From Candidatus Levybacteria bacterium RIFCSPHIGHO2_01_FULL_37_33 (GTDB taxonomy: Bacteria > Patescibacteriota > Microgenomatia > Levybacterales > UBA12049), in assembly GCA_001782085.1 (NCBI GenBank), contig MFNM01000022.1, forward strand, positions 1 through 43,564: DNA of 43,564 nt. The letters are read 5' to 3'. Positions 24,771-28,981 of the stretch are shown here, in pieces. Each line of letters opens with the position of its first letter. Within the stretch, counting starts at the first letter, position 1. The notes beneath the pieces were generated by a model, which saw only the letters and a list, made by a program, of their open reading frames with translations, ran no database searches and was not told where the DNA came from. A program made the position numbers and the translations under genes.

Positions 24771-25466
24771 ATGCCGGACGAAATAAGAGAAACACAGCCG
24801 CCTAAAGGATATAAGCATACACAGAAATTCGGTGGTACTCTCACATCTGAGAAAGAAGGTAAAATTATAGCTCTTGCTAATAGACCATTTAAGTATATTG
24901 ATGAACAATTATGTAATCTTATATCTACTGGAATTGATACAAAATTAAAGGGAGCAGTAGATCAGAAGACAAATATTCTTGATCTTGGAAGCGGTACTGA
25001 TTCTCTTGCTTGCAAACAAGTCGCAGAAAAATATGGAAAATCAGTAAATGTTGTCGGATTGGATTTTTTTCCTCAAAGTGCAGGAAAAGATAATATCTCA
25101 ATCGTACAGGCAAATATGGCGGAATTACCTTTTAAAGACGAGTCTTTTGATTTTATTTTTTCTTATCAAGCGCTGATGTTCTTGGAGCATGATAATGATG
25201 AAGCAGCGGTTGAAGAAATTCACAGAGTTCTCAAGCCTGGAGGATATGCTGTATTAGATTGGGATAGTGTTGGTTATATGAATGGAGATATCAAAAAAAA
25301 TCTTACAGATCTTGCGAGTCAGTTAGGTCTTATTTGGAGAAGTACAATCCTAGAACGAGAAGACAGAAGGAGTCAAATGGTTCATGTCTTATTTAAGCCT
25401 CCAGTTGACCAAGAATTCTTAGGAAAATTTAATGAAGTTCATGAAAGATTTGGAATAAAAGAATAA
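24771..25466 (+). CDS. Class I SAM-dependent methyltransferase
   Basis: Motif I ILDLGSGTD; post-I and motif III region VLKPGGYAVLD. Confidence 0.8.
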   Translation: MPDEIRETQPPKGYKHTQKFGGTLTSEKEGKIIALANRPFKYIDEQLCNLISTGIDTKLKGAVDQKTNILDLGSGTDSLACKQVAEKYGKSVNVVGLDFFPQSAGKDNISIVQANMAELPFKDESFDFIFSYQALMFLEHDNDEAAVEEIHRVLKPGGYAVLDWDSVGYMNGDIKKNLTDLASQLGLIWRSTILEREDRRSQMVHVLFKPPVDQEFLGKFNEVHERFGIKE

Positions 25467-25602
25467 TTATGGAGGTTCTTAAAAACTCACAGTTCTGTGG
25501 CTTTGGACCACACACTGAGCAATTATTTTAAAATATCAAAGTAATATGCAAGAGTTGTCTCAAATTAAATAAATAGTTGGAAATTTGTGGTATAATGAAT
25601 TT

Positions 25603-25752
25603 ATGAAAAAGCACCTTTTACATACAATAGTTTGGAAAGAAAATAAATTTTTTGTTGCAAAATTTTTGGAGATTGAACTTGCCAGTCAGGGAAAGACAAA
25701 AAAACAAGCTTTGCAAAATTTAAAAGAGGCTTCAGATCTCTATTTCAATTAA
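25603..25752 (+). CDS. Short HicB/UPF0150-like antitoxin-fold protein (orphan; not in the ORF track)
   Basis: MKKHLLHTIVWKENKFFVAKFLEIELASQGKTKKQALQNLKEASDLYFN fits the HicB N-terminal-domain pattern. ATG lies 6 nt after TGgTATAAT (25588-25596). No HicA partner was seen. Confidence 0.5.
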   Translation: MKKHLLHTIVWKENKFFVAKFLEIELASQGKTKKQALQNLKEASDLYFN

Positions 25753-25778
25753 GAACCGCTATGTGTTAAAATTTCCCC

Positions 25779-25850
25779 ATGCCGGAGTTGCCAGAGGTTG
25801 ATCCCACTTCACTAAAGTTTCGAGGGGCAAGAACAATTAAATTATTATAA
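25779..25850 (+). pseudogene. fpg/mutM start remnant interrupted by a CTAAAG-type palindromic element
   Basis: MPELPEV + DPTSLKFRGAR (element at 25803-25832) + TIKLL, then stop. PELPEVE is the invariant Fpg N-terminus. Confidence 0.6.
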
Positions 25851-25860
25851 AGGAAATAAA

Positions 25861-25965
25861 ATGCCTGAGCTACCTGAAGTTGAGACAATTAAATTGGGTC
25901 TTCAGAAATATCTCATCGCGGACTCCTTGTTTTTTGATGTTGTAAGTGGTAAGATTAATTTCTAG
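25861..25965 (+). pseudogene. fpg/mutM start remnant (34 codons)
   Basis: MPELPEVETIKLGLQKYL... then a premature stop. Full-length Fpg is roughly 270 aa. Confidence 0.65.
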
Positions 25966-25995
25966 TACTGAGCGCAGTCGAAGTACTAGTTTTTT
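25962..25995 (+). terminator. Intrinsic terminator
   Basis: Perfect 8-bp stem CTAGTACT/AGTACTAG, 12-nt loop GAGCGCAGTCGA, then TTTTTT. Confidence 0.7.
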
Positions 25996-26019
25996 ATGCT
26001 TCGGCGGGCTCAGCATATT

Positions 26020-26136
26020 ATGGGCAATAATCATAAGGAAAAGATTGTAATGTCCATTGGAGGATCCCTCATCGTATCAAATGGAGGAATTGATACTACT
26101 TTTTTTTCTAAATTCAATGTTGTCAACAACAAATAG
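26020..26136 (+). pseudogene. Displaced pyrH start remnant (38 codons)
   Basis: EKIVMSIGGSLIVSNGGIDTTFFSKFN versus the intact PyrH EKIAISLGGSLIVPNGGIDTAFLKRFN (19/27 identical by hand alignment), then stop. Confidence 0.7.
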
Positions 26137-26147
26137 GGAAAGCAACA

Positions 26148-28217
26148 ATGAATAGAAATATAGAAGTGCCGCCTATTAGCGGAGCACAAGAAGTACTTAA
26201 GAATAATGTACGAGTAATGCTTATTAACATGGAAGGAGAGTATGGTTTATCTTTACATGAACCGATTGGAATTGAATCAGTAGCAGCCCGTTTACTTGCA
26301 GAAGTTCCGGGCGTGGAGCTTGACATTTTTGATGTGCAACCGGAACTTGTTAGAACTGGTAAAGTAGATACTGATAAGCTTGCTGAACGCGTAAGAAATT
26401 TTGCAAGTAAAGATGGAATGCCTTTCCTTTTAGGAATAGGTGTTCCCATATATTCTTGGGAATATACAAAGTCTTTCCTTATAAAGCTTGATCAAGATCC
26501 TCCGAAATCTCCAGTGACTGTAGTATTGGGAAATGCAATTCCAACCTATACAAACCCAGAGCTAATAAAAAGGGAGTTTCCAAATGTTAAGCTAGTTGTT
26601 GGTGAAGGAGAAGAGGTATTTGCAGGTATGGCGAAAGCGTTAGCTCGAGGAGAGGAAGTACAAGATAGCCTGTATTATACGCCGCCAAACCTAGAAGAAT
26701 ATGTTCGTCCTTATCGTGGCTTAACCCAAGACGTTATTGATCTGGGGGGATCTGTTAAGATTGAGACCTCTCATGGTTGTGATTATGGTGCATGTACATT
26801 TTGCTCACGATGTCTGAGAGCGGGTAAAGATTATCGTACTGTCCCTGAGGGAACAGTGGTAAATGAGGCTCAGGGACTTCTTGATGATTTTAATATTACT
26901 CGTTTTGAATTAACCGATGAGGAAGCATTCGGAGACACAGAAGCAACATCAAGACTCGTTTCTGCTTTAAAATCTGCTGATATGCCACGTGTTCCTTTTG
27001 TCGCATCATTACGAGTTGATACGTTGATTAAGCTTAAGGAGCAAGGTTTGCTAGAACAACTACAAGAAGTGGGGCTAGATAAAGTGTTTTTGGGAGTAGA
27101 GGGTGGTTCCGATGAGTATCAAAAGCAAATTGCAAAAGGACAGAAAATGGCAGCTGTTAAAAAAGCTATGTTAATTGTTCAAGAAAGTGGAATTGATATG
27201 GAAATTGGATATATTATGTTTTCTTGGCGGATGAATTTTGACATGCTTAAAAAGAATATAGAGTTTTTGGCCGAAGGCAATGCTCAATTTGTGTCCTCTT
27301 TGTTCAATATTCTAGCGGTACGTGCAGGAACACTAGATGAGAAATTACTTCGTAAATATGTTCAGCAAGGTATTATTACTGATTACGACCCAGATGAAAT
27401 GTTTAGTGTAAATCTTTCGTACTATCGAGATGTTCCATTCCTTGACGAGAAGGTAGGACAATTATATCAAGAAGTTACTGAGTTTGGTAAGGCAGATGCA
27501 AGATTGTATTACTCTCTTAAGAGTTTAGTTCGCGCAGAATCACTCCCATTAGACATGCAAGAACAAGCAAGGGATTTATACTTACGAATGAAAGATTTAC
27601 ATCTAAAGTTTTTACAAAATGCTGTTGGCTTAGATCAGGACGACGGAATAGCTGAAAAACGGAGAAAGCTTGTTGAAGAAATACAAACTTTATTTGGCAC
27701 TTCTTCTATGGGAGATATATCAGACATCGTAATAAGAGAAACACTAGTTTTTCTTAATGAAGAGGCTGAAAGAAAAACCGCAACAGGAGAACAGATTGGG
27801 TCAATGATTGTATGTGTAAATTCACAGAATAAGATTTTACTAGTAAGACCTCGGGATGATGAAATGTGGGCATTTCCTGGTGGGGAAGTTAGGGATGGTG
27901 AAGAAATACGCGATGCTGCAATAAGAGAGGTAAGAGAAGAGCTTGGGGTAAAAGATGTAGAAATACTTGATCAATTACCCGTAATTTCAAAAGAAGGACA
28001 TCATGATGCCACAACAGGCGCACGGTCACGGCTAATACTCTACCATTCGACTGCGCGAATAAAAGGGGAAATAGACATACATAAGTCAGATCATGAAGTG
28101 GTAGACACATTGTGGCTTAGTTCTGAAGAGATTTTAAGAGAAAGAGTAAAGAGTCGTGATAACGTGAAAGAAATCGCTCGTATTCTCTCAGAGAGGAAAA
28201 CGGGAGTTCATAATTGA
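26148..28217 (+). CDS. Fusion protein: B12-binding-like domain + radical SAM core + helical linker + C-terminal Nudix hydrolase
   Basis: VVLGNAIPT...VVGEGEE (B12-type rSAM N-domain), SHGCDYGACTFCS cluster motif, and a complete Nudix box GGEVRDGEEIRDAAIREVREELGV near the C-terminus. SD-like AGGGAAAG lies upstream. Confidence 0.8.
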   Translation: MNRNIEVPPISGAQEVLKNNVRVMLINMEGEYGLSLHEPIGIESVAARLLAEVPGVELDIFDVQPELVRTGKVDTDKLAERVRNFASKDGMPFLLGIGVPIYSWEYTKSFLIKLDQDPPKSPVTVVLGNAIPTYTNPELIKREFPNVKLVVGEGEEVFAGMAKALARGEEVQDSLYYTPPNLEEYVRPYRGLTQDVIDLGGSVKIETSHGCDYGACTFCSRCLRAGKDYRTVPEGTVVNEAQGLLDDFNITRFELTDEEAFGDTEATSRLVSALKSADMPRVPFVASLRVDTLIKLKEQGLLEQLQEVGLDKVFLGVEGGSDEYQKQIAKGQKMAAVKKAMLIVQESGIDMEIGYIMFSWRMNFDMLKKNIEFLAEGNAQFVSSLFNILAVRAGTLDEKLLRKYVQQGIITDYDPDEMFSVNLSYYRDVPFLDEKVGQLYQEVTEFGKADARLYYSLKSLVRAESLPLDMQEQARDLYLRMKDLHLKFLQNAVGLDQDDGIAEKRRKLVEEIQTLFGTSSMGDISDIVIRETLVFLNEEAERKTATGEQIGSMIVCVNSQNKILLVRPRDDEMWAFPGGEVRDGEEIRDAAIREVREELGVKDVEILDQLPVISKEGHHDATTGARSRLILYHSTARIKGEIDIHKSDHEVVDTLWLSSEEILRERVKSRDNVKEIARILSERKTGVHN

Positions 28218-28270
28218 TTTTCATAGTACTGACTGTTACTATCATATTTTAGTACTGATACCAACTTTTT

Positions 28271-28981
28271 ATGACAAATAATAATTATTCTGAGAAAATT
28301 GCTATCTCGCTAGGGGGTTCGCTTATTGTCCCAAATGGAGGCATAGATACAGCCTTTCTTAAGAGGTTTAATGATTTCATAAGAGACAAACTGGCGGAAA
28401 AAGAAAACCGCCAGTTTTTTATTGTAGTAGGGGGTGGATCAACTACTAGGCATTACCAAAAAGCAGTAAGAGAAGTTGTAGGAGACAAGCTTGCTTCTGA
28501 AGATTTAGATTGGCTTGGTATTCATGCGACAAGACTTAATGCCCATCTTATCCGTACCATTTTTCGGGACATCGCCCATTCTTATATTCTTAAGCATTAT
28601 GAAATCATAAGGAAAGTGGATGAGCCAGTTGTTATTGGTTCTGGTTGGAAGCCGGGGTGGTCTACGGATTATTGCGTCGCAATGGCTTGCGAGGATTATA
28701 ATATCAAAACGATTATAAATTTAAGCAATATTGCTCAAGTTTATGATAAAGATCCAAAAAAGTTTCAAGATGCAAAACCAATTAATAAAATTTCCTGGGA
28801 AGATTTTCGAAAACTGGTGGGGGATAAGTGGATTCCCGGAATGCATGCACCATTTGATCCGGTTGCTTCTAAAAACGCTCAAGAACTTGGAGTAAAGGTT
28901 GTAGTTCTCAAGGGTGATGATTTCGAAAATCTCGAAAATTACTTCAACGGCAAAAAATTTGTTGGAACTGTGATAGAATAA
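28271..28981 (+). CDS. pyrH: UMP kinase, archaeal type
   Basis: ISLGGSLIV, VVGGGSTTRHY and DWLGIHATRLNAHLI are typical of archaeal-type uridylate kinases (amino acid kinase fold). Confidence 0.8.
   Translation: MTNNNYSEKIAISLGGSLIVPNGGIDTAFLKRFNDFIRDKLAEKENRQFFIVVGGGSTTRHYQKAVREVVGDKLASEDLDWLGIHATRLNAHLIRTIFRDIAHSYILKHYEIIRKVDEPVVIGSGWKPGWSTDYCVAMACEDYNIKTIINLSNIAQVYDKDPKKFQDAKPINKISWEDFRKLVGDKWIPGMHAPFDPVASKNAQELGVKVVVLKGDDFENLENYFNGKKFVGTVIE

What the first reader, a model, noticed from the sequence alone, without database searches (positions are those of the whole stretch)
25963..28370. One-gene cassette encoding a B12-type radical-SAM / Nudix hydrolase fusion, inserted at the start of pyrH
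Seen: a single 689-aa ORF (26148-28217) joins four parts. (i) A Rossmann-like B12-binding-type N-domain (VMLINME..., VVLGNAIPT, VVGEGEE). (ii) A radical-SAM core whose cluster motif reads CDYGACTFC, i.e. CX4CX2C rather than the canonical CX3CX2C. (iii) A helical linker of about 130 aa. (iv) A C-terminal Nudix domain with a complete Nudix box (GGEVRDGEEIRDAAIREVREELGV). The gene has its own SD. It is bracketed by the 9-mer TAGTACTGA (25963; 28224 and 28250) and by two versions of the pyrH start: a dead 38-codon copy at 26020-26136 and the intact gene at 28271. This is the footprint expected when incoming DNA carries a replacement gene start. Knowledge: radical-SAM enzymes acting on nucleotides (viperin-like) make antiviral chain terminators, and Nudix enzymes hydrolyse (modified) nucleoside diphosphate derivatives. 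I do not know of a characterised rSAM-Nudix fusion. Inference: a self-contained nucleotide or cofactor-modifying accessory module, possibly defensive, acquired horizontally.
Basis: partly seen in the sequence, partly recalled or inferred. Interest (0 to 1): 0.8.

Follow-up and report, generated by a model that had tools for sequence, protein, structure and literature searches.

The report
OxsB-like radical-SAM/Nudix enzyme beside pyrH
A rare accessory gene in an ultra-small groundwater bacterium (Levybacteria) fuses a relative of OxsB, the B12/radical-SAM enzyme that makes the antiviral nucleoside oxetanocin, to a Nudix pyrophosphatase, and across distant lineages it almost always sits just upstream of the UMP kinase gene, so it probably makes an unknown modified nucleotide.

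Summary
ORF 26148-28217 encodes a 689-aa protein with a Rossmann domain, a radical-SAM core, a helical bundle and a Nudix domain. The CX4CX2C cysteines are invariant in all 33 aligned family members. The Nudix catalytic residues are kept in 26-27 of the 27 fused members.

The first three domains are homologous to OxsB, the cobalamin-dependent radical-SAM ring-contraction enzyme of oxetanocin-A biosynthesis. OxsB is the top match by a wide margin: PDB profile E 2.5e-37 (next 2e-14) and Foldseek E 7e-28 (next 1e-14). CX4CX2C is a published OxsB peculiarity. OxsB needs a phosphohydrolase partner (OxsA, HD domain) close by. Here a Nudix takes that place, either fused or encoded by the next gene.

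The gene is rare (about 30 protein clusters, in CPR bacteria and DPANN archaea). It is absent from syntenic relatives, which have fpg-pyrH-recF. It has been exchanged recently: the block is 93-100% identical to a relative, against 65-80% for the flanks.

The pyrH link is not a random insertion footprint. A bona fide UMP kinase, of archaeal or bacterial type, follows the gene in 9 of the 12 distinct loci whose downstream sequence is known, and a tenth has a decayed remnant.

Best reading: an OxsB/OxsA-like nucleotide-remodelling module fed by UMP kinase. The product and role (defence or antagonism) are inferred. It is a new variant of a known kind.

The parts
25861..25920 (+). Remnant of fpg (first 20 codons only). 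The rest of the gene, which is intact at this position in relatives, is deleted.
   Evidence: tblastn with L026 Fpg gives 90% identity over residues 1-20. Fpg is intact in the empty-site loci L024 and L026 and in L010.
25955..26019 (+). Old pyrH leader: a stable hairpin (CTAGTACT...AGTACTAG) followed by a T-run. It holds the first TAGTACTGA copy (25963).
   Evidence: RNA fold -24.4 kcal/mol, z -4.5. Hairpin/T-run leaders precede pyrH in L024 and L001. No Rfam match.
26020..26136 (+). Dead 38-codon 5' fragment of pyrH (pyrH'). It ends 11 nt before the rSAM-Nudix start codon.
   Evidence: It is 68% identical to L010's recF-adjacent pyrH and 55% to the window's intact pyrH. The same fragment is present in L001.
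26148..28217 (+). The OxsB-like radical-SAM / Nudix fusion gene (689 aa).
26205..26642 (+). Rossmann (cobalamin-binding-type) domain, residues about 20-165. It has GNAIPT and GEGE motifs like OxsB's GNVIPS and KEGE.
   Evidence: Pfam B12-binding E 3e-4. Five-stranded Rossmann fold in the model. Aligned to the OxsB Cbl domain.
26745..27332 (+). Radical-SAM core, residues about 200-395. It contains C211-X4-C216-X2-C219 (nt 26778-26804), R221 and the D257-E258 'GGE' motif.
   Evidence: Pfam Radical_SAM E 4e-11. These residues are invariant or nearly so in 33/33 sequences. They align to OxsB C313/C318/C321, R323 and D362-E363 (PMC9204698).
27333..27782 (+).
   Evidence: The profile alignment runs to OxsB residue 656. 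All-helical in the model. OxsB domain description in PMC13331322.
27783..28214 (+). Nudix hydrolase domain, residues about 546-689. Nudix box at residues 579-601 (nt 27882-27950).
   Evidence: Pfam NUDIX E 1.3e-18. Box conservation. Foldseek matches to Ap4A hydrolases, MutT and RppH.
28218..28270 (+). Intergenic copy of the pyrH leader, with two TAGTACTGA copies (28224, 28250).
   Evidence: It is 95% identical to L001.
28271..28981 (+). Intact pyrH (archaeal-type UMP kinase, 236 aa), the conserved downstream partner.
   Evidence: NCBIfam TIGR02076 pyrH_arch 175 bits, above the cut-off of 158. It is 76-78% identical to ordinary Levybacteria UMP kinases.
26100..28850 (.). Recently exchanged block: 93-100% DNA identity to relative L001. 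Identity falls to 65-80% on both sides. The two breakpoints lie inside pyrH' and inside the 3' part of pyrH.
   Evidence: blastn and 100-nt sliding identity.

Best explanation
The gene encodes a single-polypeptide counterpart of the two-protein OxsB/OxsA system.

Shown:
- The first three domains (Rossmann, radical-SAM core with a CX4CX2C [4Fe-4S] site, helical bundle) are homologous to OxsB.
- The C-terminal domain is a Nudix hydrolase with an intact catalytic box.
- The Nudix partnership, fused or as the next gene, and the downstream UMP kinase are conserved across lineages.
- The gene is rare, absent from syntenic relatives and recently exchanged.

Inferred mechanism:
- The radical-SAM half reductively cleaves SAM and abstracts hydrogen from the sugar of a (deoxy)nucleoside phosphate. 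The pyrH link suggests a uridine or other pyrimidine nucleotide.
- It then remodels the sugar. The model reaction is OxsB-type ring contraction through a cobalamin adduct. A diol dehydration is the alternative.
- The tethered Nudix plays the OxsA role. It keeps the phosphohydrolase next to the radical enzyme and removes pyrophosphate from the substrate or product.
- The co-transcribed UMP kinase, and in some lineages a PfkB-type kinase or a SurE nucleotidase, feeds or recycles the nucleotide pool, as CMPK2 does for viperin.
- The product would be a nucleoside or nucleotide analogue used against viruses, hosts or competitors.

Inferred for this genome: the module sits in the pyrH transcription unit and spreads among Levybacteria by recombination, with pyrH sequence on both sides serving as homology arms.
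For: OxsB homology:
- The family profile against PDB sequences gives OxsB E 2.5e-37 over OxsB residues 162-656. The next hit is at 2e-14.
- Foldseek of a confident model (pLDDT 90, pTM 0.90) gives OxsB E 6.8e-28. The next hit is AprD4 at 1e-14.
- Shared residues: CX4CX2C, Arg after the motif (OxsB R323 = R221 here), and the GGE-motif Glu that contacts cobalamin in OxsB (E363 = E258 here). All are invariant here (PMC9204698).

Phosphohydrolase partnership:
- OxsB works with the HD phosphohydrolase OxsA and is inactive when the two are separated by a membrane (PMC13331322).
- Here, 27 members carry a fused Nudix with conserved catalytic residues.
- The unfused members P0028 and P0031, the nearest outgroup P0046 and a Sphingobium plasmid homologue each have a separate Nudix gene immediately downstream.
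- These separate Nudix proteins belong to different Nudix lineages, so the pairing was recruited repeatedly.
- The Sphingobium operon also has the SurE 5'/3'-nucleotidase.

Nucleotide context:
- A UMP kinase passing NCBIfam equivalog cut-offs follows directly in the window, L001, L004, L006, L007, L010, L017/L009, L022 and L029, with a remnant in L011.
- A PfkB kinase overlaps the start codon in L004 and L018.
- More distant relatives are fused to PNP_UDP_1 or dNMP-kinase domains.
- Viperins are likewise linked to nucleotide kinases (bioRxiv 10.1101/2023.09.13.557418).

Accessory and mobile character:
- A pattern-based scan found 5 loci among 185,579 species genomes.
- Empty sites exist in L024 and L026.
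- A 95%-identical block lies in 65-80% flanks.
- rSAM and pyrH identities are discordant between the window and L004 (81% against 23%).
- Two lineages carry the gene beside AbiE, toxin-antitoxin and integrase genes, or beside an ABC-3C-like system.
Against: - Identity to OxsB is only about 18% in the Foldseek alignment, so the reaction type cannot be transferred with confidence.
- OxsB's N-terminal domain is absent, and its Asn186 under the cobalt is Pro100 here.
- Cobalamin binding is untested. CPR and DPANN organisms generally cannot make B12 (own knowledge). The second-best structural match, AprD4, is a B12-independent dehydratase (own knowledge).
- No substrate is known, and the pyrimidine inference rests only on gene order.
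- The adjacent pyrH looks like each host's ordinary housekeeping gene: the window's is 76-78% identical to ordinary Levybacteria UMP kinases but 61-64% to the pyrH next to other copies of the gene. The link could therefore be positional, that is, use of a strong essential-gene promoter.
- There is no real match to known defence systems.
- No homologue was found in phage or viral collections.
- Most loci lie in housekeeping surroundings.
Confidence: 0.5

Rival explanations
1. Nucleotide-handle chemistry. The radical-SAM half modifies (methylates, dehydrates or epimerises) the non-nucleotide part of a UDP- or NMP-linked metabolite such as a sugar nucleotide. The Nudix then cuts off the nucleotide handle and releases UMP, which the adjacent UMP kinase recycles. 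This is the logic of Fom3 acting on a CMP-linked phosphonate (own knowledge).
For: - Nudix enzymes typically cleave nucleoside-diphosphate-X.
- A UMP kinase lies directly downstream and a PfkB sugar-kinase-like gene upstream.
- Other B12-type radical-SAM enzymes (MgmA, CysS, TokK, TsrM) are the next structural matches.
- One homologue lies in an NRPS-like biosynthetic cluster.
Against: - OxsB is the closest relative by 13 or more orders of magnitude in both sequence and structure searches.
- All NCBIfam methylase models score far below their cut-offs.
- No nucleotidyltransferase that would build a UDP-X substrate was seen next to any copy.
Confidence: 0.2
2. Positional hitch-hiker. The gene makes some accessory product, but its place upstream of pyrH has no functional meaning. 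It reflects expression from an essential gene's promoter and spread by recombination through pyrH homology.
For: - The adjacent pyrH is the host's own type in each lineage.
- The recombination breakpoints lie inside pyrH sequence.
- Three lineages keep the gene without pyrH.
Against: - Homology arms cannot explain the same position next to bacterial-type and archaeal-type pyrH genes that share only about 23% protein identity, or in a DPANN archaeon.
- L010 keeps a second full pyrH directly after the gene.
- L011 carries a decaying pyrH remnant at a locus that is not a pyrH locus, as if the pair moved together.
Confidence: 0.15
3. Housekeeping nucleotide metabolism. The enzyme is an alternative radical route in pyrimidine or deoxynucleotide supply or salvage for reduced genomes, for example a dehydratase- or reductase-like step, expressed with pyrH.
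For: - Operon with pyrH, and housekeeping surroundings in most loci.
- The radical enzyme is related to one that acts on nucleotide sugars.
Against: - The gene is extremely sparse: about 30 protein clusters against more than 7,600 pyrH relatives, and 5 loci in 185,579 species genomes.
- It is absent from close syntenic relatives.
- It has been laterally exchanged.
Confidence: 0.08
4. RNA 5'-end enzyme. An RppH/Dcp2-like Nudix domain binds or decaps RNA 5' ends and the radical-SAM half modifies the terminal nucleotide.
For: By sequence, the best matches for the Nudix domain are RNA pyrophosphohydrolase RppH and Dcp2 (E about 1e-7).
Against: - These matches are weak, cover little more than the Nudix box, and are far below family cut-offs.
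- By structure, Ap4A hydrolases and MutT match as well or better.
- The separate Nudix partners of unfused relatives belong to other subfamilies.
- No RNA-binding domain is present.
Confidence: 0.04

Closest known systems
OxsB with OxsA (oxetanocin-A biosynthesis, Priestia megaterium plasmid), and the homologue AlsB (albucidin)
   Same: - Homologous Rossmann, radical-SAM and helical-bundle domains. OxsB is the top match by a wide margin in sequence and structure searches.
- Same CX4CX2C cluster motif, the Arg after it, and the cobalamin-contacting Glu of the GGE motif (PMC9204698).
- Obligatory partnership with a nucleotide phosphohydrolase (PMC13331322).
- Carried on accessory or mobile DNA.
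   Different: - About 18% identity only.
- No OxsB N-terminal domain.
- Pro instead of Asn186 under the cobalt.
- The partner is a Nudix, mostly fused, rather than a separate HD-domain protein. AlsB instead uses a second radical-SAM enzyme.
- Linked to UMP kinase, which points to pyrimidines rather than dATP or dAMP.
- Found in CPR bacteria and DPANN archaea.
- The product is unknown.
Viperin / prokaryotic viperins with CMPK2-type kinases
   Same: A radical-SAM enzyme presumed to act on a nucleotide and genetically linked to a nucleoside-monophosphate kinase that can supply substrate (bioRxiv 10.1101/2023.09.13.557418). Both are accessory and patchily distributed.
   Different: - No specific homology: no viperin match in the Pfam, NCBIfam, PDB or PADLOC searches.
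- B12-type architecture.
- The kinase is PyrH (amino-acid-kinase fold), not a CMPK2-type P-loop NMP kinase (own knowledge of the folds).
- Carries an extra Nudix domain.
AprD4 (radical-SAM 1,2-diol dehydratase with a B12-like domain)
   Same: Second-best structural match (E 1e-14). It has a Rossmann domain plus a radical-SAM core and acts on a sugar ring.
   Different: - A much weaker match than OxsB.
- No helical bundle or Nudix domain.
- The NCBIfam AprD4 model scores 29 bits against a cut-off of 500.
- Its substrate is an aminoglycoside.
Free-standing Nudix NTP/Ap4A pyrophosphatases (MutT, RppH, CT771, aq_158)
   Same: Complete Nudix box and fold.
   Different: The domain is tethered to a radical-SAM enzyme. 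No subfamily model reaches its cut-off. The substrate is unknown.

Membership tests
OxsB-type (class 1) cobalamin-dependent radical-SAM enzymes | Closer to OxsB than to any other solved radical-SAM enzyme across the Rossmann, radical-SAM and helical-bundle domains | tested here: met
   PDB profile search: OxsB E 2.5e-37, next hit 2e-14. Foldseek: OxsB 6.8e-28, next hit 1e-14.
OxsB-type (class 1) cobalamin-dependent radical-SAM enzymes | CX4CX2C [4Fe-4S] motif instead of CX3CX2C | tested here: met
   C211, C216 and C219 are invariant in 33/33 sequences and align to OxsB C313, C318 and C321. The motif is described for OxsB in PMC9204698. Some wider relatives (P0054, the Sphingobium homologue) have CX3CX2C.
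OxsB-type (class 1) cobalamin-dependent radical-SAM enzymes | GGE-motif Glu that hydrogen-bonds cobalamin, salt-bridged to the Arg after the Cys motif (OxsB E363 and R323) | tested here: met
   E258 and R221 are invariant and align to E363 and R323 (PMC9204698).
OxsB-type (class 1) cobalamin-dependent radical-SAM enzymes | Asn186 positioning water under the cobalt | tested here: not met
   The aligned residue is Pro100 (32 of 33 sequences), followed by the invariant Ile101 (PMC13331322).
OxsB-type (class 1) cobalamin-dependent radical-SAM enzymes | Extra N-terminal domain of OxsB and AlsB | tested here: not met
   The Rossmann domain starts at about residue 20. The alignment to OxsB starts at OxsB residue 143-162.
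OxsB-type (class 1) cobalamin-dependent radical-SAM enzymes | Binds cobalamin and needs it for activity | not testable with these tools
   There is only a weak Pfam B12-binding match (21 bits against a cut-off of 32) plus the fold and motif similarity. Spectroscopy on purified protein is needed.
OxsB-type (class 1) cobalamin-dependent radical-SAM enzymes | Ring contraction of 2'-deoxyadenosine phosphates | not testable with these tools
   No biochemical data. The gene context points to uridine nucleotides instead.
OxsB/OxsA two-component system | Dedicated HD-domain phosphohydrolase partner | tested here: not met
   No HD domain was found in the protein or listed among the annotated neighbours. 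The partner is a Nudix, fused or adjacent. The role is the same in outline but the fold is different.
Nudix hydrolase superfamily | Nudix box GX5EX7REUXEEXGU and the Nudix fold | tested here: met
   Pfam NUDIX 67.7 bits against a cut-off of 21.1. Box residues are conserved in 26-27 of 27 fused members. Foldseek matches Nudix structures.
Nudix hydrolase superfamily | Assignment to a named subfamily (MutT, RppH, ADP-ribose pyrophosphatase and others) | tested here: inconclusive
   All NCBIfam Nudix models score far below their cut-offs, for example RppH 39.8 against 118.
Viperin-like radical-SAM nucleotide dehydratases | Sequence or structure membership in the viperin family | tested here: not met
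   No viperin match in the Pfam, NCBIfam, PADLOC, PDB sequence or Foldseek results. Only the kinase linkage is analogous.
Known or candidate anti-phage defence systems (PADLOC) | Significant full-length match to a system protein | tested here: inconclusive
   Only weak matches: PDC-M51A (36 bits, E 7e-10, residues 22-383) and PDC-S07 on the Nudix box. PADLOC models have no curated cut-off. The level is that of generic B12-type radical-SAM and Nudix similarity.
Integrative mobile element | Own recombinase, and direct repeats or attachment sites at the ends | tested here: not met
   No recombinase lies between fpg and recF. The repeated 9-mers lie in the duplicated pyrH leader. The exchange breakpoints lie inside pyrH sequence.

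The most novel reading that the evidence does not exclude
CPR bacteria and DPANN archaea carry a self-contained synthase, an OxsB-like radical enzyme with a tethered Nudix, that converts a pyrimidine nucleotide supplied by the co-transcribed UMP kinase into a new sugar-remodelled nucleotide analogue (oxetane-type or other). The analogue acts as an antiviral or host-directed weapon. The module spreads between genomes by using pyrH sequence on both sides as portable homology arms, so that insertion never inactivates the essential gene.
Probability: 0.25. Interest if true: 0.8.

Novelty: new variant of a known kind. Interest (0 to 1): 0.66.

Why it matters
According to a recent review, OxsB and AlsB are the enzymes behind the only two known natural oxetane nucleosides, and why OxsB needs its phosphohydrolase physically close is still an open question (PMC13331322). 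I know of no other characterised member of this clade (own knowledge).

A family in which the phosphohydrolase is fused to the radical enzyme, and in which different Nudix types were recruited independently, is direct comparative evidence that the coupling is functional. It also offers a one-polypeptide system in which to study it.

The conserved UMP kinase partner suggests a pyrimidine substrate, and therefore a nucleoside analogue of a kind not yet described. Such compounds are leads for antivirals and herbicides.

The family would also be one of the few candidate chemical-antagonism or defence functions in the very small genomes of CPR and DPANN episymbionts.

A related operon (surE, rSAM, nudix) on a conjugative plasmid of a cultivable Sphingobium makes the idea testable.

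Tried and rejected
1. Viral origin. No relative was found in IMG/VR contigs or GenBank phages. The BFVD fold search gave only generic B12-type radical-SAM matches.

2. TAGTACTGA as an attachment site or target duplication. Rejected. The copies belong to the duplicated pyrH leader hairpin, and the motif is absent from the junctions of other loci.

3. A special cassette-type UMP kinase travelling with the gene in all lineages. Rejected as a general rule. The window's pyrH is closer to ordinary Levybacteria pyrH (76-78%) than to the pyrH next to other copies (61-64%). The window and L004 share 81% rSAM identity but only 23% pyrH identity. L010 and L011 do suggest occasional joint movement of the pair.

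4. The separate Nudix genes as simple fission products of the fusion. Rejected. They share only 25-38% identity around the Nudix box and belong to different subfamilies.

5. A known RNA element in the leader. Rfam gave no match.

6. Foreign base composition. The cassette is 37-40% GC against 33-39% in the flanks, which is not informative.

7. A named NCBIfam family. All hits (BchE, the lipid-biosynthesis B12-binding/radical SAM model TIGR04072, ArsL, MCR glutamine methylase, AprD4) score far below their cut-offs.

8. Literature. No paper in the held library links OxsB or cobalamin-dependent radical-SAM enzymes with Nudix.

Full report
**1. The observation**

The window carries a 689-aa ORF at 26148-28217 on the + strand.
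- Pfam finds NUDIX (residues 551-669, E 1.3e-18) and Radical_SAM (205-357, E 4.3e-11) above their gathering scores. B12-binding (37-160, E 3e-4) falls below its score.
- No NCBIfam model comes near its cut-off.
- The cluster motif reads C211-DYGA-C216-TF-C219, that is CX4CX2C.
- The Nudix box (residues 579-601) is complete.
- TAGTACTGA occurs three times (25963, 28224, 28250), against 0.16 expected by chance.
- A 38-codon copy of the pyrH start lies at 26020-26136, about 75% identical in DNA to the start of the intact pyrH at 28271.

**2. The fusion is real and belongs to a small, sharply bounded family**

A search of 5.8 billion proteins returned 32 relatives scoring 330-1459 bits, followed by a gap down to 53 bits.
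- Twenty-seven are full-length rSAM-Nudix fusions, 41-95% identical, from independent assemblies.
- In the alignment A1, the three cysteines, R221 and E258 are invariant in all 33 sequences, and D257 is kept in 32 of 33.
- The Nudix catalytic residues R593, E597 and E598 are kept in 27/27 fused members and E594 in 26/27.
- A pattern-based scan of one genome for each of 185,579 species found only five loci. The records are labelled a Levyibacteriota MAG, an unclassified bacterium, two Micrarchaeota (DPANN) MAGs and one bin called Gammaproteobacteria.
- No relative was found in viral contigs or phage genomes.

**3. What the radical-SAM half is**

- A profile of the family searched against all PDB sequences gives OxsB (5UL2) at E 2.5e-37, covering OxsB residues 162-656. 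The next hit is at 2e-14.
- The AlphaFold model is confident (pLDDT 90.2, pTM 0.90). Foldseek against the PDB again puts OxsB first (E 6.8e-28), ahead of AprD4 (1e-14), MgmA, CysS, TokK and TsrM.
- In the alignment, OxsB reads SRGCDYSRCTFCPR. This is the same CX4CX2C spacing, and a review lists it as an OxsB peculiarity (PMC9204698).
- The Arg after the motif (OxsB R323) and the GGE-motif Glu that hydrogen-bonds cobalamin (E363) correspond to the invariant R221 and E258.
- Two differences stand out. OxsB's extra N-terminal domain is missing, and Asn186 under the cobalt is Pro100 here (PMC13331322).
- The family is therefore a distant OxsB homologue (about 18% identity in the Foldseek alignment), not a viperin relative.
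- An exhaustive HMMER search of 1.84 billion cluster representatives found 364 clusters at E < 1e-30. Most are 520-570-aa stand-alone enzymes. Several of those inspected carry CX4CX2C, while P0054 and the Sphingobium homologue have CX3CX2C.

**4. The Nudix partnership is conserved**

OxsB acts on 2'-deoxyadenosine phosphates. It needs the HD-domain phosphohydrolase OxsA physically near: no activity is seen when the two are separated by a membrane, and OxsA then strips the phosphates (PMC13331322).

In the present clade a Nudix takes this place.
- It is fused in 27 members.
- In the unfused members P0028 (Micrarchaeota) and P0031, a separate Nudix gene follows at 29 nt or overlaps the rSAM gene.
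- The nearest outgroup P0046 also has an overlapping Nudix gene.
- A conjugative plasmid of Sphingobium yanoikuyae carries gntR, surE (5'/3'-nucleotidase), an OxsB-like rSAM and a NUDIX gene in a row.
- These separate Nudix proteins are not orthologues of the fused domain, so the pairing arose more than once.
- More distant relatives are fused to a nucleoside-phosphorylase-superfamily domain or a dNMP-kinase domain.

All of this points to a nucleotide substrate.

**5. The pyrH link**

A UMP kinase gene starts 3-70 nt downstream, on the same strand, in the window, L001, L004, L006, L007, L010, L017/L009, L022 and L029. L011 has a truncated remnant.
- These are bona fide pyrH genes above the NCBIfam equivalog cut-offs: archaeal type in the window, L007 and L010, and bacterial type in L004.
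- The window and L004 share 81% rSAM-Nudix identity but only 23% pyrH identity. The position next to pyrH is therefore kept even when the gene moves between lineages with different pyrH types.
- In L004 and L018, a PfkB-family kinase overlaps the start codon.
- In L010, a second pyrH and an AAA_28 gene follow.
- Three lineages lack the kinase. L012-15 has a lone gene beside an rve integrase, AbiE and MazE/ParE. L019 lacks it, and so does L021, where the gene lies inside an NRPS-like cluster.
- The linkage resembles that of viperins with CMPK2-type kinases (bioRxiv 10.1101/2023.09.13.557418).

**6. Insertion and spread in this genome**

The window's pyrH is 76-78% identical to ordinary Levybacteria UMP kinases.
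- Relatives with the same backbone (FtsH, 5'-3' exonuclease, GT4, then Fpg, PyrH, RecF, carbohydrate kinase, then Fic, ligase) have nothing between fpg and pyrH: L024 on a 644-kb contig, and L026.
- In the window, fpg is cut down to 20 codons.
- Against L001, the backbone genes are 65-80% identical in DNA. From about 26100 to 28850 identity is 93-100%, non-coding DNA included. The fall-off points lie inside pyrH' and inside the 3' part of pyrH.
- This pattern fits recent exchange by homologous recombination with pyrH sequence on both sides. The step from pattern to mechanism is an inference.
- The 9-mers are the 5' arm of the pyrH leader hairpin, present once in the old leader and twice in the new one. 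They are not attachment sites, and there is no recombinase in the cassette.
- The pyrH' fragment is specific to the window/L001 lineage.

**7. Interpretation**

Shown:
- OxsB homology.
- An intact Nudix domain.
- A conserved Nudix partnership and a conserved pyrH partnership.
- Rarity, presence/absence polymorphism and lateral exchange.

Inferred:
- The radical half remodels the sugar of a (deoxy)nucleotide, probably a pyrimidine.
- The Nudix plays the OxsA role.
- pyrH and PfkB feed or recycle the nucleotide pool.
- The product is a nucleoside or nucleotide analogue used in antagonism or defence.

Cobalamin use, the substrate and the reaction type are open. AprD4-like B12-independent dehydration is a live alternative. 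The rivals are nucleotide-handle chemistry on a UDP-linked metabolite, a purely positional link to pyrH, a housekeeping role, and RNA 5'-end chemistry.

**8. Novelty and verdict**

No paper in the held library connects OxsB or cobalamin-dependent radical-SAM enzymes with Nudix.

I rate this a new variant of a known kind: an OxsB/OxsA-type pair with a different, fused phosphohydrolase, a new kinase partner and a new phyletic home.

Its interpretation is partly supported.

Noticed in passing
window 25955-26022 (+); also L024 6935-7003 and L001 9775-9870: A stable hairpin followed by a T-run lies just upstream of the (dead) pyrH start: -24.4 kcal/mol, z -4.5. Hairpin/T-run leaders of different sequence precede pyrH in relatives. 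There is no Rfam match. It could be a pyrH attenuator in Levybacteria.
   Followed up: partly
window 25778-25800 and 25861-25965: There are two MPELPEV(E) starts of fpg. Only the first 20 codons of fpg survive (90% identical to a relative's Fpg). The DNA glycosylase gene that flanks the site in relatives has been lost here and in L001.
   Followed up: yes
L030 7338-11218 (NZ_CP139981.1, 12915-16795): A conjugative plasmid of cultivable Sphingobium yanoikuyae HAMBI_1842 carries gntR, surE (5'/3'-nucleotidase), an OxsB-like radical-SAM gene (CX3CX2C; OxsB is its best PDB hit at 3.5e-31) and a NUDIX gene, in that order. This is a tractable relative of the system.
   Followed up: partly
proteins P0043, P0047, P0048, P0049, P0055, P0056, P0063: OxsB-like domains are embedded in giant proteins of 1,482-6,428 aa. 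P0047 also has a PNP_UDP_1 domain and P0049 a dNMP-kinase domain plus Peptidase_M54. Their organisms and functions are unknown.
   Followed up: partly
L010 10194-17161: Two full-length pyrH copies (64% identical) bracket a 5.5-kb stretch with AAA_28, three TrmB-type regulators, a GNAT acetyltransferase and a GCHY-1 (GTP cyclohydrolase) gene.
   Followed up: no
L021 1-17695: An unfused OxsB-like rSAM with an overlapping Nudix gene lies in a high-GC NRPS-like cluster. The cluster has FemAB-like, condensation, adenylation, thioesterase, FAD-oxidase and EPSP-synthase-like genes and a second Nudix. It resembles a peptidyl-nucleoside-type cluster (own reading).
   Followed up: no
L011 3981-6921 and L012 556-7598: In two lineages the gene sits alone beside conflict or mobile genes. 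L011 has an ABC-3C-like set (DUF2326, MC6/MC8, CTD12) and a resolvase. L012 has AbiEii/AbiEi, MazE/ParE and an rve integrase.
   Followed up: partly
window 24771-25752: The stretch between the GT4 glycosyltransferase and the fpg remnant differs in every relative. The window has a class-I methyltransferase and a 55-aa ORF with no family match. Relatives have MFS, abhydrolase, Nudix or unknown genes. It looks like a local hotspot for gene turnover.
   Followed up: partly
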